Numbered from the stretch's first letter, positions 2,675 to 64,000 are shown. The stretch: 64,000 bases of DNA from Leucoraja ocellata (GCA_036785375.1 JAWMAR010000201.1:1922001-1986000), one strand, 5' to 3'. Made by a program: numbers and translations. The notes: generated by a model not told the origin, from the sequence alone.

Positions 2675-2710
2675 ATCTACACGACCTAAAATTCGGTTTT
2701 GAAGAAACAG
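2675..2710 (+). CDS. Microexon, 36 nt: (D)[11 protein letters not shown]
   Basis: cccttttttttcag|ATCTAC...GAAACAG|gtcagt; the GAAACAG|gtcag end matches the 36-nt class. Confidence 0.8.
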
Positions 2711-38700: not shown

Positions 38701-41700
38701 CTTAATAGAAGGTTTGCAGGCCTATTTCTACCATTCCTCGCGTGCTTTCGCCTGCAGTGGGATCATGCGAAAGGCAAATGTTTCCACAATGTGTAATATA
38801 TTTTAGAATAGCACTGAGAATCATAAACCATACCGACATCTGGTAGTTTCAGTTTAATTTAGGGGTTTCGAGGCCTTTCCTGTTGTAGACAAGTATTCCT
38901 CGTATTAATCCAGAATAATATTCGAAATCGTATTTCTTAAGTTATCGCTTGAATTCACTTTGCAGATGAAGAATTGCGTGAAAAGGATGCAGGTATGGTA
39001 TTCTCGTGGTGGCGCTGTCGGCGATGGCAGTCTGTCGGTATTTTCGTAGTTTTTGTTAGCTTTAGTCTGTTTTAACAATATGTGATAATGTTCACTGGTT
39101 TCTTTTATGTGGGGGGTGGGGGTCGGGGAAAACCTTTTTCAATCTCTTACCTTGCCAGAGATGCGATTGTTTTCCGTATCGATGCTAGGTTCCTCTGCGG
39201 CCTAACATCATGGAGCAGGCGGCCTAGCTCGAGACTGACTTTGAGCTCCACCGCGGGTCCATGCACTTACCATCGGAGCCTGTGATCCCTTGCCTGGGAT
39301 TGACACTCCAAACGCGGCCTGTGGATTTCAACATCGAGGAGCTTGCAGTCTCGGGTAGAGAATGATGTTGAGAAGTGACGAAGATGCGGGTGGGCGTTCC
39401 ATTGGTATCCTGGATCACCAGCTATCTGACTGGCCGACCTCAAAGTATGACAGACTGCAGAATTGTGTCATGGTAGCGAGCAACACAGGGACCCCGATGG
39501 GGACGGTTTTCTCTCCCTTCCTGTTCACCATCTACCCCTGGACTTCATATACAACTCGGCCTCCTGCCAACTATAGACGTTTTCGGATGACTGTGCAATT
39601 GTGGGCTGCATCAGTGAGGAGAGGGAAGCTGAATACAGAGGTGTAGTCAATTACTTTGGTGAATGGTGTGGGCTAAATCATGTCCATTGACAATACTAAG
39701 GAGTTGGTGCTGGATTTTAGGAGTAGAGGAACACCCCTGCCTCTGTTTCCATCAAGGGTGTAGATGTACAGTTTACCATGCAGTGCAGTACCTTGAAATT
39801 TAGCTGGACAGTAGACTAGACTGGTCCAGTAATGCTTAGTGCAGTGCAGAAGAAGGGACAGAACCGTCTGTACCTTCTAAGGAGGCCCCGTCCCTTTAAC
39901 GTCAGCAGTGAGATGCTGCAGATGTTCTATCAATCGGTGGTGGCCAGTGCAATCTTCTAAGTTGTCATGTGCTAGGGTGACAGGGCGAAGGCCGCGGACG
40001 GTAACATAATCAACAGGCTCATCAGGAAGGCTGGCTCCGTTCTGCGAATGGAGTTGGATTAATTGGAGGAGGTCTTGCAGGGGATATAATTAAGTGAAAA
40101 GGGAGTTGTCAGTGACAATAATTCAATGTTAAGATACCGATTAAATGGATTTAGCTCACGGTTGCGTTAACTTAGATAGAGTTAGGAAAGGCCACAAAAT
40201 GCCGGGAAGAGGTCTAGATACGACAGCGTGAGGAACACATAGATACTACCAAACTACAGAAAAAAAAATGCAGCTTATATACTTCTGGATGACGAGTTTT
40301 ATTGGATATCACCAAAATGAAACGAGGCGCATTTGTTGTGTTTGGAATATATACCGGTAATTGAAATAAAACCACATGTCACTGTTGAATTAGACAAGAC
40401 ATCAAACTAAGGCCTGAGTGGTCATCTTATGTTCTAAATTCATTCTTAATCCACGATTCTTTCCAATTTAGAAATCACAGCGTTGAAAAGAAAGCTGCAA
40501 GAAACAGGTCAGGAGAAAGAAATGCTAATATTTTCAATCATCAATGTATATATACACAATATACAAACTCGTCAATATAAACACAACAGAAGTTCACCTC
40601 CATGGTTTGTTAGATAAGTAAAAACAAACATTACGTACGCTCTGCAAAAGTAAGCGTTTCAACTCCGTCATTCAAGTGAATTGGTGTGGGAGATTCTGAA
40701 AGCGTGCGCAAAATACTCCAGTCAGTTAGCCCGCACAGGTTTTGCGAAGGCGACCAAGCACACCGTCAGGTCCCGCGGTGCAATTTCATGAAAAATCTTC
40801 TGACATCGGCCTCGGTGATTGAGATTACAATGTGATCGAGAACTATGGGGACCAGAGCAGGACATCAGTGTGCTTCTTTTCAATGTGCGTTCATTGAGCT
40901 CACCTGAGAATGATGCTCCAGTGTCATGTAAGATAGCATTTAGTTTCGCCTTGTAAGAGCTGATGATGTGCATGTGCCGTGATTGCCAAACGTTCGTCCC
41001 ATCCTTCAATGTAGAGTGAAAATATCTATGAATCTTTTTAATGGCCTTGTCAAGGTGGTAACTGGAAGTCCTACGTGAATCTGCATCGCCAGAATTGAAT
41101 TCCAAAGATCTAGTCCTTAGACGATTGCGGACCTGGTCCATTCAAGGTTTGCGGTTGGGTAACACTCGGGTGGGTTAGGAGACCACCCCCACACACTTCC
41201 TCGTGCAATCTTCTCCACGCACTTCCTTATGAAGTCGGTAACAACCGTGACGCATTCGGTCTGGTCCGTTCCGGAGTCTTTGCATTTCGCCAGTCTACCG
41301 AATCGAAATAAACCCGAAGCAATTCTTCCGTCTATGACCGGCTCTGGGCAGTCCTCGCAGCTGAAGCTGCGCCTCTTCAATCGCTGCCCCTGTATTCACG
41401 AGGAAGCAGCAGAGGCAGGTGTTCAGACTTCCCAAAGTGAGTGCGAAGGATGGAACGTTAGGTATCTTTAATGGTGGAATAACTATGATGCAGGGCGCTT
41501 CATTTCTAGGTACTGGGGAACTTGTTGCATATGAACATATGTAACCATATAATATTACCTTGAGCGTAGCCGAGACCACAAGTGAAGATTTCCGTTTTAC
41601 GATTTTGGACATTTTGCCGGCAACTTGATTGGCTTGCTGTCGAGAGAGCACACTGAAGTTTCACCATGTCTGTGGAGACAGTAGAATGGCGTTGAGAGGA

Positions 41701-44700
41701 AAAGGTAGATCAGCCATGATTTAATGGCTGAGTAGACTCGATGGGATGAATGGCCAAATTCTGCTCATAGGACTTCCGACATGAATAAAATAAGCTGCAG
41801 GGAGGTTTGTTGAGTTATGATGGCCGTGGGAGATTAAACGTTGGGTGACCATATGGGTAAACTATAAACGCGGATATCTGTTCAAAGTTAGATCCTGGGA
41901 ATATAGAAAAAATAATATTATTTTGAAACACCTGGAGTTGCAAAATAGACCTGGTTTGGAAGTGTGATTTGAAGGCAGGTGAAGCGATGTTCTGTTATTA
42001 AATTAATGGATCTCTTGCAAATCTCACGACAATGTAATGGAACAATATTTAAACATAAATAAATAAACAAATATAATTAAATTACCGTTGACACTCCATT
42101 AGTGTAGAAGAAGTGCAGCATTGAAGCAGGTCACAGGGTAAAATAATTGACACAAGTGTATAAGCACATATTGCTCACTAATTTTCAACATGCGGCGTGA
42201 CTGACTGTCCACGCTCAGTGCGAACACGCAGCATGACACGCTCTGACACGAATTGCCAAGCAACTTTTATATTCTTTTAAACAATACATTGAAAACTATT
42301 GAGTAAAATTCTCCCAAATGTACTTAATATTCTGCAGGGGAATCTATTGTATTTCACCTGATACCTAATGACTTTGTGTATTAACAGAGGAAAAAATGCG
42401 TCTGGGCAAAGGAGGTAAATTACTTCGGCGATGTATTTCACGATACCGGGCAACGGGTATTTCTCTGACAGTTCGAGGAGGAGGAAGAAGGACATTATTC
42501 CGGAAATCTATGCAAACAGTAAACACAGAACTTACGACGCTCACCTTTTTGTGACCTTCACAACGAGTGGCATGTGCAGAATTATAAAGCAAAATGTACA
42601 ATGAATTCTTCTCCATATGTATACCAAAAGTACAATAAGGCGTTTTACTTTCATCTATGAATTTGGCTTGTTAAAATAAGATTATGATTCCGTCTTTTGT
42701 CACCCTTTGCAGTTATGTAGCAATATTCGACATAGGTATAGATTTTCATTGTTCGCGCTATGACATTCCCAGTCAATATTGCTAAACTAAAAATCCCCTG
42801 TTATGACAACCTTATTAGACATTTGCTCTTTTAACTTCCAATGACTATTTGATGCCCTGAAGTACACCCCGAAAAAGGTGATCTTCCCTTTCTTGTTCCT
42901 CAGATCCATCGCATAGTGTCACGAGCCGAACAGTTCGTAATGTCCCGTCTGACAACTGGTGTCACATCCACCTTAGCCAATGATGCAACATACCTTCAAC
43001 TTTTACGCTCACATCTGTCTCTTTTGAAGCACTTTTGCACCAAATTTGGGCACCATATTTGAGGAAGGATGTGCTGGCTCTGGAGAGGGTCCAGAGGATG
43101 TTTACAAGAATGATCCCATGAATGAGTAGGTTAACCTGTGGTGAGCGTTTATATGCGCTTGGCCTGTACTCGCTGGCGTTCATAAGAATGAATAATAAAT
43201 TGAGCATTAGAATTTTTACGGGTAATTGAAATTGAACTACATTTTATTGTTTAATTAGACAAGAAATTAATCTAAGGCCCAAGTCGTCATCTTATCCTCA
43301 TCCACGTTTCTTTACAATTTAGAAATCTCAACGTTGAAAAGAAAGCAGCAAGAAACAGGTCAGTTGAAAGAAATGTTAAAACTTTCAATGAATGAGGTAA
43401 ATATAAAACTGAAGTTCACTTATCCGTGGTTGTCGGATATGTAAAAATAAGTATTACTTTTCAATAGACAATAGACAATAGGTGCAGGAGTATGCCATTC
43501 GGCCCTTCGAGCCAGCACCGCCATTCAATGTGATCATGGTAGATCATTCCCAATCAGTACCTCGTTCCTGCCTTCTCCCCATATCACCTAACCGCTATTT
43601 TTAAGAGCAATGTCTAGCTCTCTCTTGAAAGCATCCACATAACACACCCCCACCGCCCTCTGAGGCAGAGAATTCCACACTCACCACTCTCTGTGAGAAA
43701 ACATGTTTCCTCGGCTCCGTTCTAAATGGCTTACTTCTTATTCTTAAGGCTTACTCCTTATTTTCCTTTTCGTTCTGCAAAATTGATCGCTTCAGCTCCA
43801 TTCGGTCATTCAAGTTAATTATTATGGAATGGGTGGAGCGATATTCTCCAGAGACAATTTGCGTATTTTTGTATCTTCCCCCTTCTGCACTTTGTCCAGC
43901 GCAGTTCCTAACCTTCCTGAATTGATGGAGAAACGTAACCGTGCAACGTGTTGAGAACGAGCTGCTGAAATGGCAGAGAACTATTAGGTTCGCACTTCGC
44001 ATGTGTATCGAGAATCGTGCACACGCTGGATGTCAGTTACATTAACATGTGCTCTTTTGCTCCACGCCGTCTTCTTTGCTGAGCACGATTTTATTTTGCC
44101 TCGTGCTGAACGGACATATTATCTATACGATACTCAATTTTACAAGAAAATGACTGTGGCCATTTAAATTTACCATTAAAACATCCACACGGGTTTTGAG
44201 AAGGCGACCAATCACACCATCAGGCCCAGGCGCTTTCCTAGGGTGCAACATCATGAAGGATCTTCTGACATCGGCCTCGTTGACTGAGATTTCAATGCCA
44301 CCCGGGGCTACAGTGGCCTTAGAATTCAAGAAATCCTAGAAATCCGCATTCTAGTTTTCCAAGTGTACATAATACCTTTGAGCTCATCTGGGAATGTGGC
44401 CACACTGTCACATAAGTTGGCACTTGGTTTCGCCTTGTAGGTTGTGATAGTGTCCAAGTACTCTCGTAGATGCCAATCGCCCGTCGCATCCTCCAATTTA
44501 CAATGAAAGCGTCTCATCGTTTCAGATGGCCTTATCGAAGTGTTTCCTGAACCTCTGATATGAATCTCCATCGCCAGACATGAACAACTGAGATTTGGTT
44601 CTCAGTGGATTGCGGACCTGGTTCATCCAAGACGTTTGAAGAACACTTGAATGGATTGGTGGGAGCGCACTTGCCAATATATTTTATTATGAAGTCGGTA

Positions 44701-47700
44701 ACCACCGAGGTTTTCGGTCAGGTCTGGTGCCGAGTCCTTCCACACCGCCAGTCTACCGACTACACACAATCCCGGAGTAAACCCGCGGTCTTCCAGCACC
44801 AGCGCTGTGTAGTCCTCGCCGCTGGAGCTGCGCTCTTCAGTTGCAGCCTATTTTCAAGAAGAACTATCCCAGCCATGTATTCCGATTACCCAAAGTGAGT
44901 GCGAGGGATGGAACCGTAGTCATATTTGATGATGGAATTAAAATGTCAGAGGGTGCTTAATCCTCAGGTGCCTACAGTGAGGTAGACACGGGTGGAAATC
45001 GTGGAGTGCAGAAGGCCCAGGTGGCTGTGGTTGTGGCTAATGAAAACAGGTACGCCCTCTTGGGAACTGTCCGGGGAGACGATGTTTCCAGTCCGAGTGG
45101 CGGGCATGTCAGTGACTCCAGTCCTAGAGATGGGACGCGACAGGCGAGACCGACGTCGGGTAGAGTGGGTGACTCCATTGTCCGAGGAGCGGACAGGAAA
45201 TTCTGTGGCGAGGATGCGACTATTCTCCGAGTGGCGTCGGTGCCTCAGCTCGTCGATATGCGACTGGATCCTGAATTTCCTGACGGAGCGACCGCAGGCA
45301 GTGAGACTGGCCCCGCACCTGTCCTCCACTACCACCCTGAGCACCGGCACACCACAGGGCTGTGTATTGAGCCCCATGCTCTACTCCCTCTTCGCACACG
45401 ACTGTGTTCCTGCATTCGACACCAACACCATTGTCAAGTTTGTAGACGACACAACGGTGATCGGGCTGATCACCAACAGTGATGAAGCAAACTACAGAGC
45501 GGAGGTGCAGAACCTGGCGGACTGGTGCTCAAATAACAACCTCTCCTTAAACACCTCTAAGACCAAGGAGCTGATTATCAACTTCAGAAGGACACATAAT
45601 GGGGAATACGCTCCAACCCAGAAGAGATCCCAGTGGTCTATAAATCTAAATCATTGCTCCCTGCTGCAGCCCCTCAGCAACACATACAGATCCCCTATCT
45701 CCCTGTTCCTGTCCTCACTAGCACGAGGTACTGGAAGCAATCCAGAGATAACCACCCGAGAAATCAGGCATTTCAGTCTTCTTCCCAACTCTCTGAAGTC
45801 ACGTTAGAGAACCTCCTTTATCTTCTTCACGATGTCGTTTGTGCCTACGTGCACAACTACTGCACGCTGTTCACCTTCTCTCTCGCATGCAGTAGGCTGA
45901 CAAAACAGGCTGGCAAGCAAATTTTACATCCTTTTAAACTTTACGTTGAAATTGATTCAGTAAAAAAATTCCAGAATGTACCCAATATTTTGCTGTGGAA
46001 TTTATTGTATTCACTTGATACCCTGTTACCTTGTGTAATAACAGACGGAAGCATGCATCAGAAAGAAGCAGGTAAATTGCTTCAACTATTTATCTGACAG
46101 TTGGTGGAGGGGGGAAGAGCAACATTATCCTGGAAATCTATCCACTTCCTTCCAATTGAATAATTCAATAAACACATCCATGCCAATTTTGTCAATCCCA
46201 AAAGTATCTCAGATGTTATTTTCGATTGGGGGTGGAGCAACTGTGAGCATTGACTCGTGTCATTGCGTGACTCAGAGAACAAGGGACCATAAACAAGACA
46301 ACAATAACATTGTTTTTGCTTGAGTGTGTTCACTCAGATAGAGTGGGAGGTGGCGGGAAATGCCGAGAAGTGTTCGCGACGCGCCCTCATGAGAATCACA
46401 TGGAAACTACTAAAATACCGAGGCTGTGCTCCATAATACTTCTGAATTACGAGTTTTGTTAGATATCCCCAGAATGGAATATATACGGGTAATTGAAATG
46501 GAACCACACTGCATTGGTTAATTAGGCCGAAAACAAGCCACGGCATGTGGTCATCATAAGTATCCAATTCATTCCCAATCCACTTTCCATTTTAGATATC
46601 GCAAAGCTGAAAGAAAGGCTTGAAGAAACAGGTCAGGAGAATAAAATACTGATACTTTCAATCATCAAGGTAGATCTACAACAGAAGTTCACTTCTGCGT
46701 CGTTGTTGGATGTGAACAAACAAGTATTGCTTTTCGTTCTGCAAAAGTGATCGCTTCAGCTCCCTTCGGTCATTCAAGTGAATGTTTATGAAATATATCC
46801 GAGTCGTGGATGGGGTAATATCCTCCGAAGACAATCTGTATTTCTGCCTCTTCAAACTTCCGCATTTCGTCCCGCGCAGTTCCTTCCGGGGTCGGTAACA
46901 AACGTGACGTATTCACTCAGGTTCTTTATCGAGTCCTTGCATATCGTCATTTCACCGAATGCAAACAATCCCAGAGTAATTCCCCTCTCGCACAGTACCA
47001 GTTCTGTGCAGTCCTCATCGCTGGAGGTGCCGCAGTCTGTATTCAAAAATATGCCAGCTGTTAAGGTTTCAAAAGGGAAATGAGAGGGATGCAACTAGAG
47101 GCATCTTTGAAGCTGGAATAACCGTGGTGGAGGGTGTTTAATCCTCAGATGCTGCAGAATTTGTTACATATGCCTCTTCATATTATCATATTAATGTGTC
47201 ACCCCGTGTACTTCACGGCCATGTAATGATATACTTATACATACAAAATAGATAAAGGTAACGAAGTTATCGTTGACAACTCCAATATTAGTGTGGAGAA
47301 GGCCAACATTGATACGAGATACAGAGTAAAATTATTTTCTCACGTGATCATGGCGCAAGTATTCTTGCCACATCGTATAAGCACATATTACACATTAGCT
47401 TGCAACATACGACGTGACCAGCTGCTCACGCTATGTGCAATCACGTAGCATGCCACGTGCTGACAAGAGTTGCCAAGCATCTTTTATATCTTTTTGAACT
47501 TTACATTGAACATTATTGAGTAAAATTTCTCCCAAATGTACTCCATATTCTGCAAGGGAATCTATTGTATTTTACCTTATATCCTGTTACCTGTGTATTA
47601 ACAGACGAAATAATGCGTCAACGTGAAGCAGGTAAATTACTTCAGCGATGAATTTCACGACAGGCGCAACAACTATTACTCTGACAACATTATTCGGGAA

Positions 47701-53700: not shown

Positions 53701-56700
53701 CTTTTAAAATAAGGTTATGGATTCCGTCTTTCGTCGTCCTTCACATTTATCGTGCTTGAATATATTCTACATACCCACATATTTGCTATTATCGGACACT
53801 AAATAAAACTAACAGGTTGTAACATGGAGAAGAGAGCATTCTCGGGAAACTTGAAATAACGTGATGTAGTGGGCAAATTCAGTATGCCTGGCACCATGAC
53901 TGGAAAAACTTAAATAACGCCAAATTCATACACTTTATGTCAAAAATTGCCGTTAATTAAAAAACAGAAAAAAGACTTAAAATGCTGGAAATCCGACGAG
54001 AAATTGAATTAAATAGGGGTTTAAACGGTCGGAAAGCTTTCTTGGCAGGATAAACGGATTTCAATGATAATGTCATTCACCAGTTCATATCATGAAATAC
54101 TATTAGGCCGAAATGCCAGCCCTACCGCCCTTGTCATAGACTTGAAAGCTTTGACCAAAATATTAAATGGCTGCGAATTACTTAATTTGCAGTCAACATT
54201 CAAAAACATCCAGCGGTTTCCGCATGAACCCGTCCACGGAGGAAAATTGCGAAACAAATTGTCAGAGCAAATTATATTCTGTTCTGTCTGCAGGTTCTGT
54301 CTGCAGTTCTGTCTGCAGTTCTGTCTGCAAAGGAAGACGTTCCCCGGTCTTTTCATTTGCTCGCCACTTCCTTCTCATGGTACAATTCAGTAATCACATC
54401 CATGCCAATTTTGTTAATCCAACTTTCCCTTTGGAATTTTTACCACATTCACACTGTTTTCAGGTAACGAGCATAGTCCGTCATATATAGGAATTATGAT
54501 GTTCTAACATCACCATAATGAAGAAGATTTGATGGGTAATCATTTATAATACTCAGCATTGTAAAAGTTTGGTTACACGTTCACTTGTTTAATGGATTCA
54601 GACTCAAGTACGCTGGCATCCAGTTGCAATTGTTGGATATAATTCGGCGACAGATGAGAGCATAATGACAAAACCCCCATATAAATCCTCTACGTGAGAG
54701 CACAGTAGATTGATGCAGAGGTGAGTATGATAAAGGACATTTGCTGGGGTAGGTTCCACGATTAGGGGATAACATCTCAGATGTTATCTATGATAGAGCT
54801 CGAGCAACTATGTGAATTGGCTCGAATTGTCAGCTGTCCCTTCTACTCTACTTCACGTAAGTAGAGTAGAAGGGAGAATAAACTATATGACGACGAAAGA
54901 CATTTTTATCACGATTGTGTTCAGCTAGATATAGTTAGGAGGTGCTAGGAAATGCTGACAAGAGTTCCAGATACGCCACCGTGAGAAACTCGTGGAAACT
55001 GACAAAATACAGAAACTGTGCATTTGTAATACATCTGAATGACGAGTTTTATTAGAAATCCCCAGAATAAATCTGGGAACATTTTGCTGGGTGTGAAATA
55101 CATACGGGTATTTGAAATTGTAATGTCATCGTTTAATTAGGCTGGAAAGCAATCTACGGCCTAAGTGGTCATCATATATTCCCAACTCATTCATAATCCA
55201 CGCGTCTTTCTTTTCTAGACGTCATAACGTTAAAAAGAAAGCTGCAAGAAGCAGGTCAGGAGTAGGAAATGCTAATACTTTCAATCATCAAGGTTTATAT
55301 GCAATAGACATTCACTTCTCCGTAGTTGTTGAATATGTAAAAACCATTGTAATGCAGTCACATCCGTAGCCATTGGCAGATCGTTGATAGCGATGGGGTT
55401 TGGTTTGAGACCGGCGCTGGTGAATACATGACCCATATAGTTCACTTCGTTGCCCGGAACCTGCATTTTGGGGGGTCAAACTTGAGGTTGATTGCTCTGG
55501 CAGGGTCTTCGTGCTCCCGGGCGACTGGGATGTCACCTACATTGATAGCACATGGGTATCCGGCAAATAACTGCTCCGTGGTGCGTTGGAAGAACTCACT
55601 AGCCGAGTTTATTCCAAATGGAACACGTAAAAATCTGTATCGTCCGAAAGGTGTGCCGAACGTGGTCAACATGGAGGATTCATGGTCTAGTGGAATCCGC
55701 CAGAATTAGTTATTTGCGTCCAGGACTGAGAATACTGTTGCTTTTCCCAAGTTGGCCGCGACTTCTCCCACCGTTCGCATCGGGTGTTGTGGGCGTTTAA
55801 TGACAGTGTTTAATTCCTTGGGATTGAGGCAAATTCGTATTTAATCTTTGTTTTCTTGGTTGCCGCAACCATGGTCGACACCTAGGCAGATGGATCATTC
55901 ACAGGGGCAAACACACCCAGAGTTCCAACATGTTAAATTCGTTCGGAACACGTTATCGTTGGGCATCTTTGATGCTGGAATAACAGGGGTGGGGGATGCT
56001 TAATCCTCAGGTGATGCAGAATTTGTTACATGTGCGATGTCCTGTTATTATATTAATGGGTCTTCCTGAGTACTTCACGACGATGTAATGACACGATACT
56101 TAAACATAAAAACATAAACAAATATAATTTAATTACCGTGGACAACTCCAATATTAGTTTAGCAGAAGTCAAAATTAAAGCGGGTCACAGTGCAAAATAA
56201 TTTTCTCACAAGGCCATGGCGCAAGTATTCTGGCCGCTGTGTATACGCACGTATTACACAGAAGTTACAACATACGTCGTGACCGACTGTTCCCGCTATG
56301 TGCAAACACGCAGTATGCCACACGCTGACAGGAGGTGCCAAGCTACTTCTACAGCATTTAAAACATTACATTGTCAATGGTTGAGGAATAATTCCCAAAA
56401 TTGTACTCAATATAATGCTGGGGAATCTGTTGTATTTCACCTGATTACCTTATGTATTAACAGACGGGAAAATGCGTCAGTACGAAGCAGGTGAATTACT
56501 TCAGCTATGCAACTATTTATCTGGCAGTTGGTGGAGGGGGAAGACCAACTTTATTCCGGAAATGTATACAAATAATAATCACAGAAATGATTCTGTTCAC
56601 CATTTCATGACCTTCACGAAGAGAGTGATGTGTAGAATGTTAAAGTAACATTTCTGAAAAATCATTCTCCATTGCTATACCTAAAATATAATGAATCGTT

Positions 56701-59700
56701 TTAGTATCATTTTGGAGTTTGGCCTTTTAAAATGGACAAATAAAATAAGTATGGATTCCGTCTTTCGCCTCCCTTCACAGTTATCGTGGGTGAATATATT
56801 CTACATACCCATATGTTTGCAATTATTGGACATAATTACGTAAAAAGAATTGATTAAATAAAATTCTGGAAATATATAGCAGGTCAGATAACGTCGTTGG
56901 AGAAAGGCAAAGATGTAATACCTCAGGTCGCCGACATTCAGTGAAACCCGAGAATGTTCAGGAATCAGGCATCTTTGCGTTTCGTAGAAGTGAGATGGGT
57001 GGATATAAGAAAGGTCATTTCAAAGACAGGGTGGGCAACAAGACCCACATGGATCACAAGAATAGGTGATTGCTTAAAGAGCGTCATGATGTATTATGAA
57101 TGACAGGTGATATATCTAGAGGAGGTGTAAATGAAGGGAAGTTACTGATAAGAAAGGACAGGGACAAAAGAGCAAACATGGGAAACACAGCATTCTCTGA
57201 AAATCAGAAATAAAGTGATGTGCTGTTCTATTTCAGTACACCCGCATCATGAATAGGACAAACTCAAATATCGCCAAATGCTATTACCTTATCTCAAAAA
57301 TTGCCGCTAATTGAAAATAATAAAAACACATAAGGTGCTGGAAATCCTACGGGGAAAATTATGTTAAACAGGGGATTAAACTGTGGGAATGCCAGAAAGT
57401 GTTCCTGCAAGGGTAAACGGATCTAAATGATACGTCGTTCACCTATTCATATGATGAATAGGTCCCAGGGGTCCCTGCTGGGAGACCGCTTTTCGGGGCT
57501 TCCGCAACGGCGACTTCTCCCGCCCGAGTTGCGGGGTCGAGGAGTACCTGGAGCAGGGCCTTACATCGCCCGGCGCGGCTTCAACGGCTGCGGGGCTTTG
57601 CTAGCGCCCGCCGGGGGCTCCAACAACAAGACCCGGAGCGTGGCCTTGCATCGCCCGGCGCGGCGTTAATAGCCGCGGGACAATTGCCATCGCCCGCCGA
57701 GGGCTTTGACTGACATCGAGAGGGGAATGGGGAGTGCAGGGGAGAGATACGTTTTTGCCTTCCATCACAGCAAGGAGGAGATGCGCTGTGATGGATGTCT
57801 GTGTAAATTGTGTTGTGTCTTGGGTCTTTTTTTCTTGTGTGTATGACTGCAGAAACAACATTTCATTTGAGCCTCTATGAGGTTCAGGTGACAAATAAAT
57901 TGTATTGTTTTGTATTGTATTGAAATACCATTAGGCCGAAACGCTAGCCACCAATGCCAGCAATGATCCCTATCATTGACTACTCCTGTATCATAACTTG
58001 AAAGTTTTGACCAAAAAAATGAAAAGACTGAATATCAGTTGTACTTGATTTGCAGTCACCTTTCTTTCATATACTGTATATCCTCACGTTTCCGCATGAA
58101 CCCGTCCACGTAGGGTAACTGCGAGGCAATATTTTCGGGGCTAAACAATAAGGTTTTCATTTTAATCTCGCTTATTAAAACTGCCCAAGGACCATCAATT
58201 AAATGAATAAACCAAATAATACAAACTATGTGACACGATATGTTGTATGAGATTGACTGCAAAACGACAGACGGTTTTATATTAACGTAAACTCCAAATT
58301 GAGTGCTGTACCCTGTTCTAACTCATTAATGATATCTACCCAGATACGTATGTCTGTCTATATGTAGATCGTCACGTCGTCGCCGTCGGAGTTAGACACT
58401 ACATATTACATACAAATGCAGTTCTGTCGCAACTTCAAAAGAACCAGTTCCCTGGTCTTTTCCATTGGTCTCCACTCCCGTCTAATTGTATAATTCAGTA
58501 ATCATTTACATGGTCGATCCAATCTTCCCTTTTGAAATTTAACCACGTTCATACTGTTTCCTGGTAACGAGCACGGACTTATAGGAATTCTGGTGTTCTA
58601 ACGTCAACACAATGCTAAACCGAGTCTGAACATGCCTGAACTGCCAAAACATTTAGCATAGTAAAAGTTTCCTTATGCATTCACTCGTTTGATTGATTCA
58701 GACTCACGCACGCCGGCCAGATAGGGGCATCCAGTTGCAATCGCTGGATATAATTCGGTGACAATGGAAGCTGTTGATACGGATAGCGAGGACAAGAAAC
58801 CCCATATAAATCCTCTGGATGAGAGCACAGTAGACGAAAGCAGAGGTGCGTATGATAAAGGACACGTTATTCAAAAGTGAAGAACTTTGCTGGTATGATC
58901 CACGGTTAGGGGAAAAATGATCTCAGATGTTATCTATGATGGAGCTGGAGCAACTACAGTGTGTGCATTTGCTCGTGTAATTACGTGATACAGAGTAAAA
59001 GACAGCATAAACAAAATAACGATGACATGCATTTTGGTGAACGTTGTCATCACTTGGAAACTTGCAGAATATAGATGCAGTGCATCTTCAACACCTCTTG
59101 ATGATGAGTTTTATTAGATATCCGCAGAATAAAACAGGGAGCATTTTGTTGGTGTGAAATATGCACGGGTAATTGAAATTGAACTTCATTTCATTGTTTC
59201 ATTAGACAGGAAAACAACCCAAGACCTGAGTGGTCATTATATGTTTCAAATCCATTCATAATCCACGCGTCTTTCCATTTTAGAAATCAGAACGTTGAAA
59301 AGAAAGCTGCAAGAAACAGGTCAGGAGAAGGAATAACTAATACTTTCAGTCATCAACGTATATGTACAACAGAAGTTCACGTCTGCGTGGTTGTTGGATA
59401 TGTTAAAACAAGTATTGCTTTTCGTTCTGCATAAGTGATCGCTTCAGCTCCATTCGGTCATTCAAGTGAAGTAGTATGGAATATACCGGAGTTATGGGTT
59501 GGGAGATATTCTCTGGAGTCAAACTCCATATTTTTGCGTCTTGCAACTTCCGCAATTTATCCAGCGTAATTCCTTACCCAGTCGGTAATAACCTTGACGT
59601 ATTCATTCGGGTCATCTGTCAAGTCCTTGGACATCCCCATTCTAATACCCAATTAGTTATTTGCCCATTAATCCACATCCCCAATTCCACAGTTGCTACA

Positions 59701-62700
59701 GAATTTGTTACATATGCCATGTCCTGTTGTTACATTAATGGGTGTCCCCGTCTACCTCACAACGATGTGATCATAAAATCCGTGTATCAATGTATAATGG
59801 TACAATACTGATAACATTTAATACATTTGATTAAATCACCAATTACAGGTCCAATATTAAATTGTAGAAGACATTAAAACTGGTTGCAGAGTAAAATCAT
59901 GTTCTCACGTGATCGTGGCGCAAGTATTTTGGCGCCAGTGTATTACCACATGTTACACATCAGTTTGCTACATTTGTCGTGATCGCGCTGTGTGCCAACA
60001 CGTTGCATGGCACACGCTGACAATAGTTGCTAAGCAACATTTACATCTTTTACATGCTTTACATATTTTACATTTACATCTTGTACTTTACATTGAAAAT
60101 GCTTGAGTAAACATTCGTCCAAATGTACTCAATATTCTACAGGGTAATCTATTGCATTTCAGCTGACACTGCTATCTTGTGCATTAACAGACGAAACCAC
60201 ACGTCAGAAAGAAGCAGGTAAATTGTTTCAGCTAAATACTTCACCACACGTGAAACAACTATTTAGCTGACAGTCGGTGGAGGGTGAAGACCAAAATTAT
60301 TCTGAAAATGTATACAAATAATAATCACAGAAATTATTCTATTCTGTAGGATTTTGAAGCAAAGTGTTTAAAGATTCATTCTCCATTTGTATACCAAATA
60401 CATGATGGATACTTTTACTATAATCTATGTTTTTGGCCTTTTAAAGTAAGATTATTGATTCCGTCTTTCGTCACCCTTCACAGGTATCGCGGTGAATATA
60501 TTCTACGTAGCCATATATTTGCAATTAATGGGCACACTTCAGTAAAAAGAACAGATTAAAGAACATTCTGGTAAATTTTTGCAGGTCAGATAGCGTCTCT
60601 GGAGAAAGACAAATAAGTAATATTTCACGTCGACGACTTGCTACGGGAACTGGGAATGTTCACGAAACGGGCATCTTTGAGATTAATAGAAGTGAAAGGG
60701 TGAGAATGACAAAAGTAATTTCGAAGACATGATGGCTAACAAGAGCACACAGACGACAAGAATAGGTGATTGCTAAAGGAGCGTCATAGTGTATTGGTAG
60801 TGGCACGTCATCTAAATGGAATAGGAGTAAATGAAGGGTGGTTACTCAGCACAAGGAACAAACAAACTTGTGCATTAGTGAAATGCAGGGCTATTTCAGT
60901 ACGCCGGGCACCATGACTGGAGAAACTGAAGTAATGTCACATGTCGATGACCTTATGTCAAATATTGCAGAAAATTCAGAAGCGGGACAAAACAAAGGAT
61001 GCAGAACATGCGACGGGAAAAACTGAAATAAAGAGAGGTTTAAATGATTAGATTGACAGCGCGCTTTCCTGTAAGGATAGGCTGATTAAATTGGTCGTGT
61101 TATTCACACTTTCACATCATTAAATACTATCCAACCGAATCGAGTTCTACGCTCCTTGTCATAGATGCCACCAAGGATCCCTAACTTTCTCTCGCCTGCG
61201 AATCAGAATTCGAAAGTTTATCCAAAAAGACATAAAGCCTGAATAGGCTTCGTTTGTATTCACCTTTCTGTCAACCATATCCTACAAAACATGTGAAATG
61301 ATATGTTGTATGAGATTGACTAAAGTACTGCAGTGTTTTATATTCATGTAAGCTCTAAATTTAGTGCCGTACACTGCACTAATTGTAATTGTTTCTACTC
61401 AGATACGTATGTCAGTTTTTATGTAGATAGTCACATCTTTCCCAAGCGAATGAGACACTAAATGTTACACATCGCTGAACTCCGTGTGGTTGTGGGTGAA
61501 CCAACCGGGAACTCACTCAGAATGGAATGCATCCTGTCTACAACGTCAAAGGAATGTCTCTGGTCTTGGAATTGTATCAGTCAGCAATCATACCCATGAC
61601 GATCCAGTCAATCCAACCATCCCCTTTGAATTTTAACCACATTAATTATGTTCCTGGTGAAGTGCACGAACCTTCCAATATAGGAATTCTAATGTTCTAA
61701 CATCACCACAATAAAGATGCTTTGATGGGAAATCATTTCAAATATTCAGCATAGCAAACGTTCACTTACAGGTTCGCCCGTTTGATGGATTCACTCACAC
61801 ACACCGGCCAGATGGAAGCATCCAGTTGCAATGGCTGGAAATAATTCGGTGACTAAGGAAGCTGTTGAAGCGGATAGCTAGGATGAGAACCACATACGAA
61901 TCTTTTAAATTAGAGCACACTGGAGGAAAGCAAAGGTGTATATGATAAAGGACACGTTGTTCACAATCGAATAACTTTGTTGGAGTAAGATCCAGAGTTC
62001 GGAGAAAAAAACAACTCAGCTGTTTTCTATGGTGTAGTTGGAGTACCTATGTGCATTAGCTCGTGTAATTATGTGAAGCAGAGTAGAAGGGGGTATAAAC
62101 AAGATAACGATAACGTGGATTTTGCTTAACATTGTGTTCACTTAGATAGAGTTTGGAGGTGCCAGGAAATGCTGACAAGTTCCAGATACGCCCCCGTGAG
62201 AAACACATGGAAACTGCCAACATACAGAAGCAGTGAATCTGCAATACGTCTTTATCAGCTTAAATAGATATCCCCAGAATAAATCTGGGAGCATTTTTTG
62301 GGTGTGGTATATATACCGCTAATTGAAATTGAACTGTACTTCGTTGTTTAATTCGGTAGGAAATCAATCTAAGGCATGAGTTGTCATCATATGTTCCAAA
62401 TCCATTCCTAATCCACACGTCTTTCCATTTTAGAAATCACAATGTTGAAAAGAAAGCTGCAAGAAACAGGTCAGGATGAAGAACTGCTAATGTCATCGCT
62501 TCGGCTCCATTCGGTCATTCAAGTGAATAAGGCGTGGTGTGGGGGATGGCGTGGTGTGGGGGTGGGGGAGAGATGTTGGCGGAGGGGGGTAGGGTGTGTG
62601 TGGGGAGGGGGGTGTGGGAGAGATGGTGTGGGGAGGGGGTGTGTGGGGAAGGGGGGTCAGTGAGGGAGGGGGTGTGTGATGGATGGGGTGTGGGGAGGGG

Positions 62701-63149
62701 GTGGGGAGGGGGGTGGGGAGGGGGGGTGGGGGATGGGGATGTGAGGAAAAGGGTTGGTGGAATGGGTTGGGTGAAGGGAGGTGTGGAGAAGGGGTGGTGG
62801 TGGAGGGGTTTGTGTGGGAGGGGGTATGCGGGAGGGGATGTGGGTGTGGGGGGTGTGGGATGGGTGCGTGGGGGAGAGAAGGGTGTGTGAGGGAGGGGAC
62901 TGTGTGGGAGGGGGGTTTGCAATATATGTCGTGACCGACTACGCGAGACATGTTCTAATACGTAGCATGCCACACGCTGACAAGAGTTGCCAAGTAACAT
63001 TTACATCCTTTTAAAGATTACATAGAAAATGATGGAGTAAACATTTTCCCAAATGTACGCAATATTCTGTATGAGGATCTATTGTATTTCACGTGGTACA
63101 TTGTTACCTTGTGTATTAACAGACGAACCAATACTTCAGCATGACGCAG
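2675..63149 (+). CDS. Partial multi-microexon gene (>=32 exons) encoding a long 21-aa-periodic coiled coil; both ends outside the window
   Basis: All exons AG..G|GT with lengths a multiple of 3, alternating 27/36 nt. Only the phase-1 frame is open in all of them (phase 0 has TGA in the 50113 exon; phase 2 has stops in the 19836, 36028, 38966 and 46596 exons). Hydrophobic residues fall at positions 4, 11, 14 and 18 of the 21-aa unit. Confidence 0.88.
2995..3290 (+). mobile_element. CR1 RT fragment
   Basis: [30 protein letters not shown]. Confidence 0.85.
3633..3659 (+). CDS. Microexon, 27 nt: ASKLNARNT
   Basis: tttattttcag|CAAGC...ATACAG|gtaaca. Confidence 0.7.
5575..5825 (+). mobile_element. 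SINE-like/retroposon tail (related fragments at ~5140-5310, ~23000-23250, ~26430-26530, ~32920-33030)
   Basis: cagtctgaagaagggtttcagcccgaaatgtcgcctatttcc..gatgctgctgcacccactgagtttctccagca motif recurring in both orientations. Confidence 0.65.
7180..7215 (+). CDS. Microexon, 36 nt: [12 protein letters not shown]
   Basis: tatttttcatgtcag|AATTC...GTATGG|gtgagg. Confidence 0.7.
7450..9130 (-). mobile_element. Decayed CR1 LINE
   Basis: Minus-strand [26 protein letters not shown] and VVEADT motifs. Confidence 0.8.
9400..10680 (+). mobile_element. CR1 LINE fragments (3' UTR followed by RT to 3' end)
   Basis: [29 protein letters not shown]; 3' UTR with gatcagccatga. Confidence 0.85.
10921..11120. 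other. Assembly gap (200 N)
   Basis: N run; flanks 10721-10870 and 11121-11268 are near-identical. Confidence 0.99.
11552..11578 (+). CDS. Microexon, 27 nt: DESLRTKDT
   Basis: tatacttatag|ACGAG...ACACGG|gtaaat; peptide resembles DEELREKDA. Confidence 0.8.
11900..12185 (-). mobile_element. CR1 fragment
   Basis: [36 protein letters not shown]. Confidence 0.85.
12260..13090 (+). mobile_element. GC/CpG-rich non-autonomous retroposon-like element
   Basis: Shares gggggtgggtgagggagaaaccgttt / cggcctaacatcg / gtcttccaccacag..gatgtttgtgttaaattt motifs with 16700-18960(-), 39000-39360 and 57460-57922. Confidence 0.7.
13681..13716 (+). CDS. Microexon, 36 nt: [12 protein letters not shown]
   Basis: tttcgcctcag|AATTT...AAAGAG|gtgaga. 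Confidence 0.8.
13745..14015 (-). mobile_element. tRNA-derived SINE (degenerate)
   Basis: Reverse strand begins gcagcacaatgacgcagctactggaact..ccagagaccccggttagatc (A/B-box-like head). Confidence 0.6.
14490..15450 (-). mobile_element. Highly decayed CR1 LINE
   Basis: Reverse complement resembles the CR1 RT and 3' end seen at 17600-18600 and 21100-22000. Confidence 0.65.
15751..15777 (+). CDS. Microexon, 27 nt: DALSIQKIK
   Basis: ttttgcctgggcag|ATGCA...TTAAAG|gtaata; weaker acceptor. Confidence 0.6.
17038..17158. repeat. 21-bp minisatellite, about 6 copies (cag[c/g]tccgagtcccgc[a/t]gc[c/a]t)
   Basis: Read directly from the sequence. Confidence 0.9.
17195..18605 (+). mobile_element. Young 5'-truncated CR1/HER1 LINE (ORF2 RT with two frameshifts, 3' UTR, (TTATATG)n tail)
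   Basis: [55 protein letters not shown]; frameshifts near 17590 and 18070. Confidence 0.97.
19709..19711 (+). CDS. Possible 3-nt microexon (ATG, adds one Asp in phase 1)
   Basis: atccttag|ATG|gtaaatgct after a long T-rich tract; occupies the otherwise empty slot between two 27-nt exons. Confidence 0.3.
19836..19862 (+). CDS. Microexon, 27 nt: ELEEKLKNA
   Basis: attatattgcag|AATTA...ATGCGG|gtaaat. Confidence 0.75.
20365..22010 (+). mobile_element. Two adjacent decayed CR1 fragments
   Basis: [20 protein letters not shown] motifs and 3' UTR. Confidence 0.8.
22128..22163 (+). CDS. Microexon, 36 nt: [12 protein letters not shown]
   Basis: ttttaaatttcag|AAAAG...AAATAG|gtgaga. Confidence 0.75.
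22229..22395. other. Assembly gap (167 N) followed by a CT-rich tract
   Basis: N run. Confidence 0.99.
22754..22780 (+). CDS. Microexon, 27 nt: EETLSLKET
   Basis: gtgcttccaaaag|AAGAA...AGACAG|gtaact. Confidence 0.7.
24814..24837 (+). CDS. Microexon, 24 nt (short variant in a 36-nt slot): EFSQCRID
   Basis: tctttttttctcgggttcag|AATTT...TTGATG|gtaagt (consensus donor). Confidence 0.7.
25932..25958 (+). CDS. Microexon, 27 nt: DEELREKDG
   Basis: tttgctttgttacag|ACGAA...ATGGAG|gtgtcg; 8/9 aa identical to the exon at 38966. Confidence 0.85.
27775..27810 (+). CDS. Microexon, 36 nt: [12 protein letters not shown]
   Basis: tcatttacttgcag|AAATA...AAACAG|gtcagt. Confidence 0.88.
28850..29460 (+). mobile_element. 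Decayed Rex1-like LINE 3' part
   Basis: tgcatcacagattggtttgggaacagctctgccc..; tail ttttactctgtacctcggt. Confidence 0.6.
29750..30285 (+). mobile_element. CR1 3' fragment
   Basis: [23 protein letters not shown]; 3' UTR. Confidence 0.85.
31213..31239 (+). CDS. Microexon, 27 nt: EYDLESKDA
   Basis: gcttctatttgcag|AATAT...ATGCAG|gtaaca. Confidence 0.82.
31644..31715. repeat. Perfect 24-bp tandem repeat x3 (aatgtatattccgtgtcacatatg)
   Basis: Read directly from the sequence. Confidence 0.95.
31830..33620 (-). mobile_element. Fragmented Rex1/Babar-like LINE
   Basis: [24 protein letters not shown]...IKCFERL (RT N-terminus); PRELTS..TAVYIP (endonuclease). Confidence 0.75.
33996..34031 (+). CDS. Microexon, 36 nt: [12 protein letters not shown]
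   Basis: tttatgtttgtttag|AACTA...TTTCAG|gtaagg. Confidence 0.82.
34700..35300 (-). mobile_element. Fragment of an REL-endonuclease non-LTR retrotransposon (HERO-like)
   Basis: [10 protein letters not shown]......DL.SMDA...SFLMRA.YDVL.SP followed by a [16 protein letters not shown] knuckle-like motif. Confidence 0.6.
36028..36054 (+). CDS. Microexon, 27 nt: DINKRSYVD
   Basis: ttctgttcccttag|ATATT...TGGACG|gtaagt. Confidence 0.78.
37060..37980 (-). mobile_element. Decayed CR1 LINE
   Basis: SC.TNLL.IFEEV...[11 protein letters not shown]; [11 protein letters not shown]. Confidence 0.8.
38036..38077 (+). CDS. Microexon, 42 nt (long variant in a 36-nt slot): [14 protein letters not shown]
   Basis: tgttcactttag|ATTGT...CGTCAG|gtaacg. 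Confidence 0.7.
38966..38992 (+). CDS. Microexon, 27 nt: DEELREKDA
   Basis: ttcactttgcag|ATGAA...ATGCAG|gtatgg. Confidence 0.88.
39000..40085 (+). mobile_element. GC-rich non-autonomous element head (39000-39360) followed by a Rex1-like RT fragment
   Basis: [19 protein letters not shown]; degenerate FSDD and TKELVLDFR. Confidence 0.7.
40472..40507 (+). CDS. Microexon, 36 nt: [12 protein letters not shown]
   Basis: tctttccaatttag|AAATC...AAACAG|gtcagg. Confidence 0.9.
40700..41520 (-). mobile_element. Rex1-like LINE remnant inside the duplicated unit (paralogous copies at 44180-44970, 46850-47160, 50370-50690, ~59540-59630)
   Basis: [16 protein letters not shown]; YKAK..A.L.D..ASF..EL; EADVRRSF...[10 protein letters not shown]. 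Confidence 0.8.
42388..42414 (+). CDS. Microexon, 27 nt: EEKMRLGKG
   Basis: tgtgtattaacag|AGGAA...AAGGAG|gtaaat. Confidence 0.85.
43323..43358 (+). CDS. Microexon, 36 nt: [12 protein letters not shown]
   Basis: tctttacaatttag|AAATC...AAACAG|gtcagt. Confidence 0.9.
44975..45620 (+). mobile_element. Chimeric insertion: CR1 ORF1-like piece (44975-~45220) fused to a young Rex1-like RT piece
   Basis: [20 protein letters not shown] (CR1 ORF1 SGNH-like motif); [54 protein letters not shown]. Confidence 0.85.
46045..46071 (+). CDS. Microexon, 27 nt: DGSMHQKEA
   Basis: tgtgtaataacag|ACGGA...AAGCAG|gtaaat. Confidence 0.85.
46596..46631 (+). CDS. Microexon, 36 nt: [12 protein letters not shown]
   Basis: ctttccattttag|ATATC...AAACAG|gtcagg. 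Confidence 0.9.
47605..47631 (+). CDS. Microexon, 27 nt: DEIMRQREA
   Basis: tgtgtattaacag|ACGAA...AAGCAG|gtaaat. Confidence 0.88.
48910..49730 (-). mobile_element. Penelope-like element RT fragment
   Basis: [45 protein letters not shown]. Confidence 0.9.
50113..50148 (+). CDS. Microexon, 36 nt: [12 protein letters not shown]
   Basis: cttccattttag|AAATC...AAACAG|gtcagg. Confidence 0.9.
51126..51152 (+). CDS. Microexon, 27 nt: GGNIHQNET
   Basis: tgtgtattgacag|GGGGA...AAACAG|gtaaat. Confidence 0.8.
52836..52967. mobile_element. Short foreign segment beginning with a hAT-like terminus, at a deletion junction
   Basis: caagggttcccaaccaggggtaaatttacc.. interrupts the unit consensus (ttctaaca|tcacc in paralogs). 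Confidence 0.5.
53419..53445 (+). CDS. Microexon, 27 nt: DEPMHQNDT
   Basis: tgtgtattaacag|ACGAA...ACACAG|gtgaat. Confidence 0.82.
54281..54329. repeat. 12-bp tandem repeat x4 (gttctgtctgca)
   Basis: Read directly; sits at an internal deletion junction of the unit. Confidence 0.85.
54837..54875. repeat. Perfect inverted repeat, 17-bp arms and 5-nt loop
   Basis: tcccttctactctactt-cacgt-aagtagagtagaaggga. Confidence 0.95.
55219..55254 (+). CDS. Microexon, 36 nt: [12 protein letters not shown]
   Basis: ctttcttttctag|ACGTC...AAGCAG|gtcagg. Confidence 0.9.
55350..55955 (-). mobile_element. Gypsy LTR-retrotransposon pol (RT) fragment without LTRs
   Basis: [29 protein letters not shown]; [16 protein letters not shown]. 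Confidence 0.9.
56464..56490 (+). CDS. Microexon, 27 nt: DGKMRQYEA
   Basis: tatgtattaacag|ACGGG...AAGCAG|gtgaat. Confidence 0.85.
57460..57922 (+). mobile_element. 5'-truncated GC-rich non-autonomous retroposon with (TTGTA)n tail
   Basis: Absent from the paralogous site at ~54090 (catatcatgaaatactattaggccg); tail gacaaataaattgtattg.. Confidence 0.8.
59284..59319 (+). CDS. Microexon, 36 nt: [12 protein letters not shown]
   Basis: ctttccattttag|AAATC...AAACAG|gtcagg. Confidence 0.9.
60191..60217 (+). CDS. Microexon, 27 nt: DETTRQKEA
   Basis: tgtgcattaacag|ACGAA...AAGCAG|gtaaat. Confidence 0.86.
62434..62469 (+). CDS. Microexon, 36 nt: [12 protein letters not shown]
   Basis: ctttccattttag|AAATC...AAACAG|gtcagg. 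Confidence 0.9.
62527..62918 (+). repeat. G-rich low-complexity tract (GGGG/GTG)
   Basis: Dense G-runs replacing part of the unit's intron. Confidence 0.9.
63123..63149 (+). CDS. Microexon, 27 nt: DEPILQHDA
   Basis: tgtgtattaacag|ACGAA...ACGCAG|gtagat. Confidence 0.82.
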
Positions 63150-64000
63150 GTAGATCACTTCAGCGATGTATTTTACAACACGCGCAACAACTATTTATCT
63201 GACAGTTGGTGGAGGAAGAACAGCAACATCATTCTGGAAATCTATATAAATAATACTCAATAATGATCACAGAAATGATTCTGCTCATCATTTTGTGACC
63301 CTCGTGAAGAGAGTGATTTGTAGACTTTTAAAGCAAAATGTATAATAACCCAAAAAAACGTAATGGCTAAATAAACTATTTACTTCATTTATAGTCACTT
63401 TTCTTACAAACATATCCTGCGGTTTCGGCCTCGCGGAGCCAGGACTATTATATCAGGCTTATTGAATCTAGCAAATAACCATCAATTAAGGGAAACAAAC
63501 AAATACTACAAACAATGTGACATGAAATGTTGTATGAGATTGACTACAATATTACAGACTGTTTTATATTAATCTAAGATCTACATTTAATGTCGTACAC
63601 TGCTCCTATCGTAATCGTATCTAATCAGATACGTTTGTGAATAGACATGACTTTCCCATGCGTATTAGACACTAAATATTACACATCCCTGAATTCAGTG
63701 TGTCACTCAAAATGTCATGCAGTTCGCTCTTCAACTACAAAGGAAGACCTACCTGGCCTTTTCCCATGCATTTCAATTGTTTAAATCAGCAATCATACCC
63801 ATGATTTGATCAATCCAACCTTCCCATTTGAATTTTAAATGCTCTAGTACTGTTCCTGGTAACGAGCACTGACCGCCCTATGAATGAAATGTGATGTTTT
63901 AACATCACCACAATATAGAAACTTTGATGGGTAATCATTTCTGATATCATGCATTGTAAACATTTCCTTTCGCGTTCACTCGTGTGATGGATTCAGACTC

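What the first reader, a model, noticed from the sequence alone, without database searches (positions are those of the whole stretch)
40290..64000. Recent tandem amplification of the two-exon module, with an age gradient along the gene
Seen: from about 40.3 kb the introns are mutually homologous. Units start near 40.3, 43.2, 46.4, 48.4 (exon-less), 49.8, 53.0 (5'-deleted), 54.9, 59.1 and 62.1 kb. The 17 upstream exons sit in apparently unique introns. Inference: the protein is being lengthened by unequal crossing-over at its 3' part, so copy-number polymorphism between individuals and species is likely. The array appears to continue beyond the window.
Basis: partly seen in the sequence, partly recalled or inferred. 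Interest (0 to 1): 0.75.

Follow-up and report, generated by a model that had tools for sequence, protein, structure and literature searches.

The report
Ancient exon-pair array in ray gene
A skate or ray gene for a long rod-shaped (coiled-coil) protein was lengthened millions of years ago by repeated copying of a two-exon segment, a known way for proteins to grow, and the one surprise is that the smaller exon has since changed about twice as fast as the DNA around it.

Summary
The array is real. Nine collinear, same-strand units lie at the stated positions, 40.13-64 kb, and the last is cut by the window end. They are copies of a ~3.5-kb unit carrying a 36-nt and a 27-nt phase-1 micro-exon (21 aa, three heptads) of an unidentified batoid coiled-coil gene. 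Upstream exons use the same module but show no intron homology.

The interpretation only partly holds. The units are 70-87% identical (K2P 0.14-0.38), so they are old: the youngest event is roughly 68-123 My on a shark clock and about 8-23 My on fast vertebrate clocks. That event is a two-unit block copied in the middle of the array. It left a seamless chimeric unit, which supports unequal crossing-over but not growth at the 3' end. There is no monotonic age gradient (rho -0.18). The longest exact match is 53 bp, so frequent present-day copy-number polymorphism is unlikely.

Fifteen exons keep their splice sites, length and frame. The 27-nt exon diverges about 2x faster than its introns (P 1e-4), from diversifying selection or a mutation hotspot. 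No annotated orthologue was found. Verdict: a new member of a known kind, of moderate interest.

The parts
40131..64000 (+). Tandem array of nine intron-containing units (ancestral unit ~3.4-3.6 kb); cut by the window end
40131..43204 (+). U1; 36-nt exon 40472-40507, 27-nt exon 42388-42414
43205..46322 (+). U2; 36-nt exon 43323-43358, 27-nt exon 46045-46071; heavily interrupted and deleted
46323..48386 (+). U3; 36-nt exon 46596-46631 (the most diverged copy), 27-nt exon 47605-47631
48387..49799 (+). U4; exon-less. Upstream intron flank joined to a late intron segment, then a ~0.9-kb insertion
49800..52944 (+). U5; chimeric unit (5' part sister to U7, 3' part sister to U3); 36-nt exon 50113-50148, 27-nt exon 51126-51152
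52945..54907 (+). U6; 5'-deleted, only the 27-nt exon 53419-53445; sister of U4
54908..59047 (+). U7; 36-nt exon 55219-55254, 27-nt exon 56464-56490; two insertions
59048..62121 (+). U8; 36-nt exon 59284-59319, 27-nt exon 60191-60217
62122..64000 (+). U9; 36-nt exon 62434-62469, 27-nt exon 63123-63149; ends inside the inter-unit spacer
46787..50300 (+). Copy 1 of the youngest, two-unit duplication
50304..55345 (+). Copy 2 of the youngest, two-unit duplication (87% identical to copy 1 over 2104 sites)
2675..38992 (+). 18 predicted upstream phase-1 micro-exons of the same gene. 36 nt at 2675, 7180, 13681, 22128, 27775, 33996; 27 nt at 3633, 11552, 15751, 19836, 19973, 22754, 25932, 31213, 36028, 38966; 24 nt at 24814; 42 nt at 38036 (the last two less certain)
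40731..41503 (-). Decayed retroelement-like remnant shared with U2 (44185-44961); its end persists in U3, U5 and U8, so it was in the unit before amplification. The retroelement identity is my reading of the translation; Pfam gave no hit
44986..45804 (+). U2-specific reverse-transcriptase fragment (RVT_1, E 4.9e-13)
55350..55960 (-). U7-specific insertion with a weak RVT_1 match (E 4.2e-5, below the Pfam cut-off)
43464..43741 (-). U2-specific insertion of a dispersed repeat, up to 91% identical to copies upstream, so younger than the units
62530..62915 (.). U9-specific G-rich simple repeat replacing part of the unit

Best explanation
This is an old intragenic tandem duplication that lengthened a coiled-coil rod protein. 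SHOWN: the gene is built of alternating 36-nt and 27-nt phase-1 exons (12+9 aa, three heptads). One ~3.5-kb genomic unit holding one such pair was copied to at least nine units, adding 156 aa within the window, about 23 nm of rod at the textbook ~0.15 nm per residue. The tree is nearly star-like, so most copies arose close together in time. The last event copied two units at once from the middle, with a seamless junction inside U5. Deletions then removed both exons of U4 and the 36-nt exon of U6, and retroelements inserted into single units. INFERRED: the events were out-of-register homologous crossovers; they were tolerated because every exon is symmetric and a multiple of three; loss of a whole pair keeps the heptad register while loss of one exon shifts it by two residues; the exons are spliced into one mRNA; the array is now mostly frozen because the units have diverged; and the upstream exons are older rounds of the same process whose introns no longer align. 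The 36-nt exon supplies most of the hydrophobic seam, and the 27-nt exon is the variable part.
For: Collinear plus-strand homology. Exon length and strand excess, open frame. Heptad a/d positions hydrophobic in upstream exons alone: 26 of 44 versus 15 of 118, P 9e-9. Chimeric U5: U3/U5 are 76% identical before the junction and 87% after it (P 8e-6); U5/U7 are 86% before and 80% after (P 0.007); the three parts of the youngest block give one age (87.3, 87.2, 85.9%, homogeneity P 0.77). Internal branches are only 16% of tree length. Function: all 15 retained exons keep AG/GT (P 3e-4 at the intron rate) and have no indel (3.6 expected, P 0.03). Multi-unit, central expansion is the pattern described for protein repeats (PMC1553488, passages). 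Batoid origin: the best named hits of an intronic LINE protein are Leucoraja erinacea (84%) and Mobula hypostoma (81%).
Against: No transcript evidence. No spliced orthologue was found, although the database holds RefSeq batoid proteins. Absence of stop codons alone is weak (2.4 expected, P 0.07). Conservation of the 36-nt exon is not significant by likelihood test (rate 0.72x intron, P 0.16) or after removing splice-adjacent and CpG sites (P 0.07). The clocks come from other species and from synonymous sites. By subtraction, the last crossover involved partners only ~90% identical (inference), and PMC2583991 notes crossovers on <50-bp matches between close alpha-globin repeats, so rare present-day events are not excluded.
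Confidence: 0.8

Rival explanations
1. A recent and still active array, growing at its 3' end and polymorphic in copy number between individuals.
For: Tandem geometry and one demonstrated unequal crossover. U1 and U2 are the most divergent. Younger units could lie beyond the window or be collapsed in the assembly.
Against: The closest pair is 87% identical, longest exact match 53 bp, against 134-232 bp thresholds and >95% typical identity in PMC2583991 (passages). The youngest event is central; rho -0.18. Unit-specific insertions.
Confidence: 0.08
2. The main role of the array is isoform diversity. The exons are alternatively included cassettes, or some are rarely used, so rod length varies by splicing rather than by genomic copy number. 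This is compatible with the duplication history.
For: All exons are symmetric and frame-neutral. Five 36-nt copies show no synonymous difference in a purine-rich sequence, as a splicing-enhancer constraint would give. No annotated protein carries the array. Chicken BG heptad exons show alternative splicing (PMC5938342, passages).
Against: No RNA data. Those five copies have only 7.7 synonymous sites each, and U3 and U7 were left out of that count. Introns of 524-2793 nt give no steric basis for mutual exclusion.
Confidence: 0.25
3. The array is a decaying relic: the copies are pseudo-exons or the gene is dead.
For: U4 and U6 lost exons. In the 27-nt exon pN is about equal to pS (0.215 versus 0.205). 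No orthologous protein was found.
Against: 15 of 15 retained exons keep both splice dinucleotides and their length, despite 13-30% intron divergence. The 27-nt exon is faster than neutral, not equal to it.
Confidence: 0.07
4. The blocks are copies of a dispersed transposable element.
For: The unit contains retroelement-like remnants, and one segment matches dispersed repeats upstream on the minus strand.
Against: All copies are same-strand and collinear and carry in-frame exons of the host module. Profiles of 11 intron segments found no plus-strand hit at E<0.05 in the 40 kb upstream. Genome-wide distribution could not be tested.
Confidence: 0.03

Closest known systems
Intragenic tandem duplication of exon modules in repeat proteins (nebulin super-repeat type; Bjorklund et al. 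2006, PMC1553488, passages read)
   Same: [quoted passage not shown]
   Different: The unit is a three-heptad coiled-coil module from two micro-exons, and intron homology still records breakpoints and deletions.
Chicken BG (butyrophilin-family) cytoplasmic tails (PMC5938342, PMC4046983, passages read)
   Same: A long coiled coil encoded by dozens of micro-exons; exon number varies by duplication and loss; apparently selected variation in the heptads.
   Different: BG uses 21-nt single-heptad exons (a few of 18 or 24 nt), whereas this gene uses 36+27-nt pairs. No Ig-V, transmembrane or B30.2 exon lies in the window and no sequence similarity was shown.
Apolipoprotein(a) kringle IV type 2 array (recalled, not tested by any search)
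   Same: A two-exon genomic unit of several kb repeated in tandem inside one gene.
   Different: As recalled, KIV-2 units are near-identical and vary in copy number; these are 70-87% identical and interrupted.

Membership tests
Intragenic tandem exon-module duplication | Collinear same-strand copies that include introns | tested here: met
Intragenic tandem exon-module duplication | Symmetric, frame-preserving exons repeated per unit | tested here: met
Intragenic tandem exon-module duplication | Multi-unit, internal duplication with a homologous junction | tested here: met
Intragenic tandem exon-module duplication | Copies spliced into one mRNA | not testable with these tools
   No RNA data; indirect support from splice-site and length retention
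Active NAHR-driven copy-number-variable array | >95% identity with long uninterrupted matches | tested here: not met
   At most 87% pooled, longest exact match 53 bp (thresholds from PMC2583991)
Active NAHR-driven copy-number-variable array | Copy number differs between individuals | not testable with these tools
   Needs reads from several individuals
BG/butyrophilin family | Heptad coiled coil from many micro-exons | tested here: met
BG/butyrophilin family | 21-nt single-heptad exons | tested here: not met
   Length peaks are 27 and 36 nt; no 21-nt candidate in the strict scan
BG/butyrophilin family | Ig-V, transmembrane and (BTN) B30.2 exons | not testable with these tools
   Both gene ends lie outside the window
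BG/butyrophilin family | Selected variation in the coiled-coil exons | tested here: inconclusive
   27-nt exon ~2x intron rate, but pN is about equal to pS on 3.7 synonymous sites
Dispersed transposable element family | Copies scattered in both orientations outside the array | tested here: not met
   Within the window only; genome-wide not testable
Mutually exclusive tandem duplicated exons | One-of-n inclusion in transcripts | not testable with these tools
   No RNA data

The most novel reading that the evidence does not exclude
An unannotated batoid rod protein, possibly an immune or host-conflict factor working like chicken BG tails. It was extended by at least 156 residues in an ancient burst, and its 9-residue micro-exon has been driven to diversify by positive selection in each copy while the 12-residue partner holds the coiled-coil seam. 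The homologous introns would give a built-in neutral clock for measuring selection per micro-exon copy.
Probability: 0.2. Interest if true: 0.65.

Novelty: new member of a known kind. Interest (0 to 1): 0.36.

Why it matters
It is a clean fossil record of how a coiled coil grows: unit boundaries, one out-of-register crossover, exon losses and register shifts can all be read from the introns. It also corrects an easy misreading, since alignable introns in a slow-clock cartilaginous fish do not mean a recent or polymorphic array. If the twofold acceleration of the 27-nt exon is selection, it points to an unannotated batoid protein in a molecular conflict, and to micro-exon genes that annotation may be missing.

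Tried and rejected
Gene identity was not resolved.
- The 36-nt-exon profile with intron flanks found none of 2390 candidates at E<=10 (proteins of 84-2000 aa only).
- The full scan of 1.84 billion representatives gave 2 hits. P0001 is a bacterial-type glycosyltransferase with a chance coiled-coil repeat (rejected). P0002 is an unspliced read-through of another copy of the unit. P0002 found only itself among 2 candidates.
- Local controls show these profiles would detect an array-bearing product at 15% divergence (E 1e-6 to 1e-13), marginally at 30%, and would miss an orthologue without the array. A profile of all 36-nt-type exons was too weak and was not used. The spliced protein itself was not searched, so the identity stays open.
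- PDB profile search: 3 chance-level hits, best E 0.16. Rfam: 0 matches at E<=0.1. tRNA: 0. No RNA gene explains the conserved introns.
- Pfam on intronic ORFs: RVT_1 in 4 of 10; 0 of 9 significant.
- Rejected candidates: 20414 and 57030 as exons; the 19836/19973 flank similarity (overlap artefact); significance of 36-nt exon conservation (a simple binomial gave P 0.006, but stricter tests gave P 0.07 and 0.16). The binomial used too high an intron rate and is superseded.
- Literature searches listed no paper on this gene or array; the library lacks most subscription journals. PMC12227049 and PMC5100051 (passages) added nothing beyond a caution that gene prediction misses exons. No supplements were read.
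The genome collection is prokaryotic and was not used.

Full report
Observation. Self-alignment shows many collinear plus-strand off-diagonals from 40.13 kb to the window end, covering 79% of that stretch, with no inverted hit inside it. Mapping reference segments taken from U5 and the U7/U8 spacer reconstructs an ancestral unit of about 3.4-3.6 kb and nine copies, starting near 40.13, 43.21, 46.32, 48.39, 49.80, 52.95, 54.91, 59.05 and 62.12 kb. U4 has lost both exons. U6 has lost its 5' part. U9 ends inside the spacer that elsewhere leads to the next unit, so the array probably continues; this is not shown.

The gene. A splice-site scan gave sharp peaks at 27 nt (17 candidates) and 36 nt (14) on the plus strand, against 0 and 2 on the minus strand. 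I dropped two (20414, inside a LINE; 57030, not kept in sister units) and added four from a relaxed scan. The 33 exons are all phase 1 and read without a stop over 339 codons; the other frames have 23 and 16 stops. The product is rich in E, K and L. A 36-nt plus a 27-nt exon give 21 residues, three heptads; examples are [12 protein letters not shown] at 50113 and DEIMRQREA at 47605. In upstream exons alone, heptad a/d positions are hydrophobic in 26 of 44 cases versus 15 of 118 elsewhere (P 9e-9), so upstream and array exons are one module. The host is a batoid: the best named relatives of an intronic LINE protein are from Leucoraja erinacea (84%) and Mobula hypostoma (81%). Both gene ends lie outside the window.

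Upstream introns. All 49 array-array exon pairs share flank homology. None of 122 upstream-array pairs does, and the only one of 60 upstream-upstream pairs that scores is an overlap artefact (16 of 18 upstream exons tested). Profiles of 11 array intron segments find no plus-strand match at E<0.05 upstream; one segment matches dispersed repeats on the minus strand. Only the exon at 27775 and its donor site still align with the array.

Age. Pooled intron identity between units is 70-87% over all 36 pairs. K2P averages 0.29 over the 32 pairs with at least 200 sites, range 0.16-0.38; the U4/U6 pair, 195 sites, is 0.14. The youngest event has K 0.143+/-0.009 over 2104 sites. Whale shark and zebra shark differ by dS 0.061-0.111 over ~50 My, human and mouse by ~0.58 over 90 My, and pufferfishes by ~0.59 over 32-55 My (PMC13100897, passages); the epaulette shark mutation rate is 7e-10 per generation (PMC10587355, passages). 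On these clocks K 0.15 corresponds to 68-123 My (shark), 23 My (mammal) or 8 My (fastest fish), and K 0.29 to 131-237, 45 or 16 My. These are borrowed synonymous clocks, not batoid intron rates, but none makes the array recent in a population sense. Single units carry their own insertions, including reverse-transcriptase fragments in U2 and U7 and a dispersed repeat in U2 up to 91% identical to copies upstream.

Order of events. The tree is star-like (internal branches 16% of length). U1 and U2 split from U3-U9 (98% bootstrap), with sister pairs U3/U5 (100), U4/U6 (100) and U8/U9 (92). A best-partner scan shows 46.8-48.3 kb pairing with 50.3-51.9 kb, 48.7 with 53.8, and 49.8-50.1 with 54.9-55.2. 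So one event copied two units at once: ~46.79-50.30 kb to ~50.30-55.35 kb. Its three parts give one age (homogeneity P 0.77). U5 is a chimera: 76% identical to U3 before the junction and 87% after (P 8e-6), 86% to U7 before and 80% after (P 0.007). But the event is central, and age shows no trend along the array (rho -0.18, P 0.65) or among upstream exons (P 0.23 and 0.15). The pattern is a step at 40.1 kb, older units at the 5' edge and a younger centre. Multi-unit and central duplication is the reported norm for protein repeats (PMC1553488, passages).

Present-day activity. The longest exact match between units is 53 bp. Cutting uninterrupted homology from 232 to 134 bp reduced recombination 20-fold in mouse cells, and typical substrates are >95% identical (PMC2583991, passages). 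Against my reading, the same review notes alpha-globin crossovers on matches under 50 bp between nearby repeats, and by subtraction the last crossover here joined partners about 90% identical. Frequent polymorphism is unlikely; rare events, or younger units outside the window, are not excluded.

Selection. Unit positions were defined by intron homology. All 15 retained exons keep AG and GT (P 3e-4 at the intron rate) and have no indel (3.6 expected, P 0.03); no stop was seen against 2.4 expected (P 0.07). The 36-nt exon is slow in five of seven copies, with no synonymous difference among them, but overall it is not significantly slower than its introns (0.72x, P 0.16; P 0.07). The 27-nt exon is faster: about 2.1x the intron rate (likelihood test P 1.4e-4); none of 45 intron blocks of equal length reaches its divergence; and the youngest pair U3/U5 differs at 11 of 27 bases where the flanks differ at 12.6% (P 2e-4; none of 1503 other windows reaches 11). 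The excess survives removal of CpG and splice-adjacent sites (P 0.001). However, pN and pS are alike (0.215 and 0.205, on only 3.7 synonymous sites), and amino-acid changes match random expectation (31 versus 30.6). Diversifying selection and a local mutation hotspot cannot be separated here.

Identity. Profiles of the 36-nt exon found no spliced protein, although the database holds RefSeq batoid proteins. Controls show an array-bearing product would be seen at 15% divergence and marginally at 30%, but an orthologue without the array would be missed. The only true relative is P0002, an unspliced read-through of a further copy of the unit from an assembled-read contig, whose 36-nt exon matches none in the window. 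The unit therefore exists elsewhere: beyond the window, in a paralogue, or in another species. PDB, Rfam and tRNA searches gave nothing. Five literature searches listed no description of this locus.

Comparison and verdict. It works like other intragenic exon-module expansions and meets the tested features of that class. It resembles chicken BG tails, long coiled coils from many micro-exons with variable exon number and apparently selected variation (PMC5938342 and PMC4046983, passages), but fails the 21-nt exon feature, and the defining domains cannot be tested, so it is not filed as BG or butyrophilin. It fails the identity test for an active copy-number-variable array. Verdict: a real, old, probably functional and mostly frozen amplification in an unidentified batoid coiled-coil gene; a new member of a known kind. 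The accelerated 27-nt exon is the lead worth following. Interest 0.36.

Noticed in passing
window 10720-10868 and 11121-11268: A 149-bp stretch 98.7% identical on both sides of the 200-N gap at 10921-11120; probably an assembly overlap artefact.
   Followed up: no
window 19836-19999: Two 27-nt exon candidates only 110 nt apart break the 36/27 alternation. With the 24-nt candidate at 24814 included, the heptad register is restored by exon 27775.
   Followed up: partly
window 48550-48600: The U4 deletion joins the decayed end of the 36-nt exon to a late intron segment that resembles the exon's 3' end and donor site, which suggests a microhomology-guided deletion.
   Followed up: partly
36-nt exons at 40472, 43323, 50113, 59284, 62434: 92-97% identical with no synonymous difference, while their flanks are 66-79% identical; a possible splicing-enhancer constraint or short gene conversion.
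   Followed up: partly
P0002: An unnamed 86-aa read-through of another copy of the unit with a different 36-nt exon, so the unit exists outside this window.
   Followed up: partly
window 48900-49795: Insertion between U4 and U5 with decayed minus-strand ORFs that look Penelope-like (recalled resemblance); no Pfam hit.
   Followed up: partly
window 16981-18510: A relatively intact LINE fragment (RVT_1) preceded by a 21-bp tandem repeat at 17039-17157. It lies in the intron where a 36-nt exon would be expected and none was found.
   Followed up: partly
window 57460-57920: GC-rich U7-specific insertion with an 85-bp direct repeat; part of it matches 12997-13084.
   Followed up: no
window 23364-23618: An 84-aa intronic stop-free frame with no Pfam match.
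   Followed up: partly
window 25932 and 38966: Two upstream 27-nt exons 20 of 27 bases identical, a trace of an older duplication without intron homology.
   Followed up: partly
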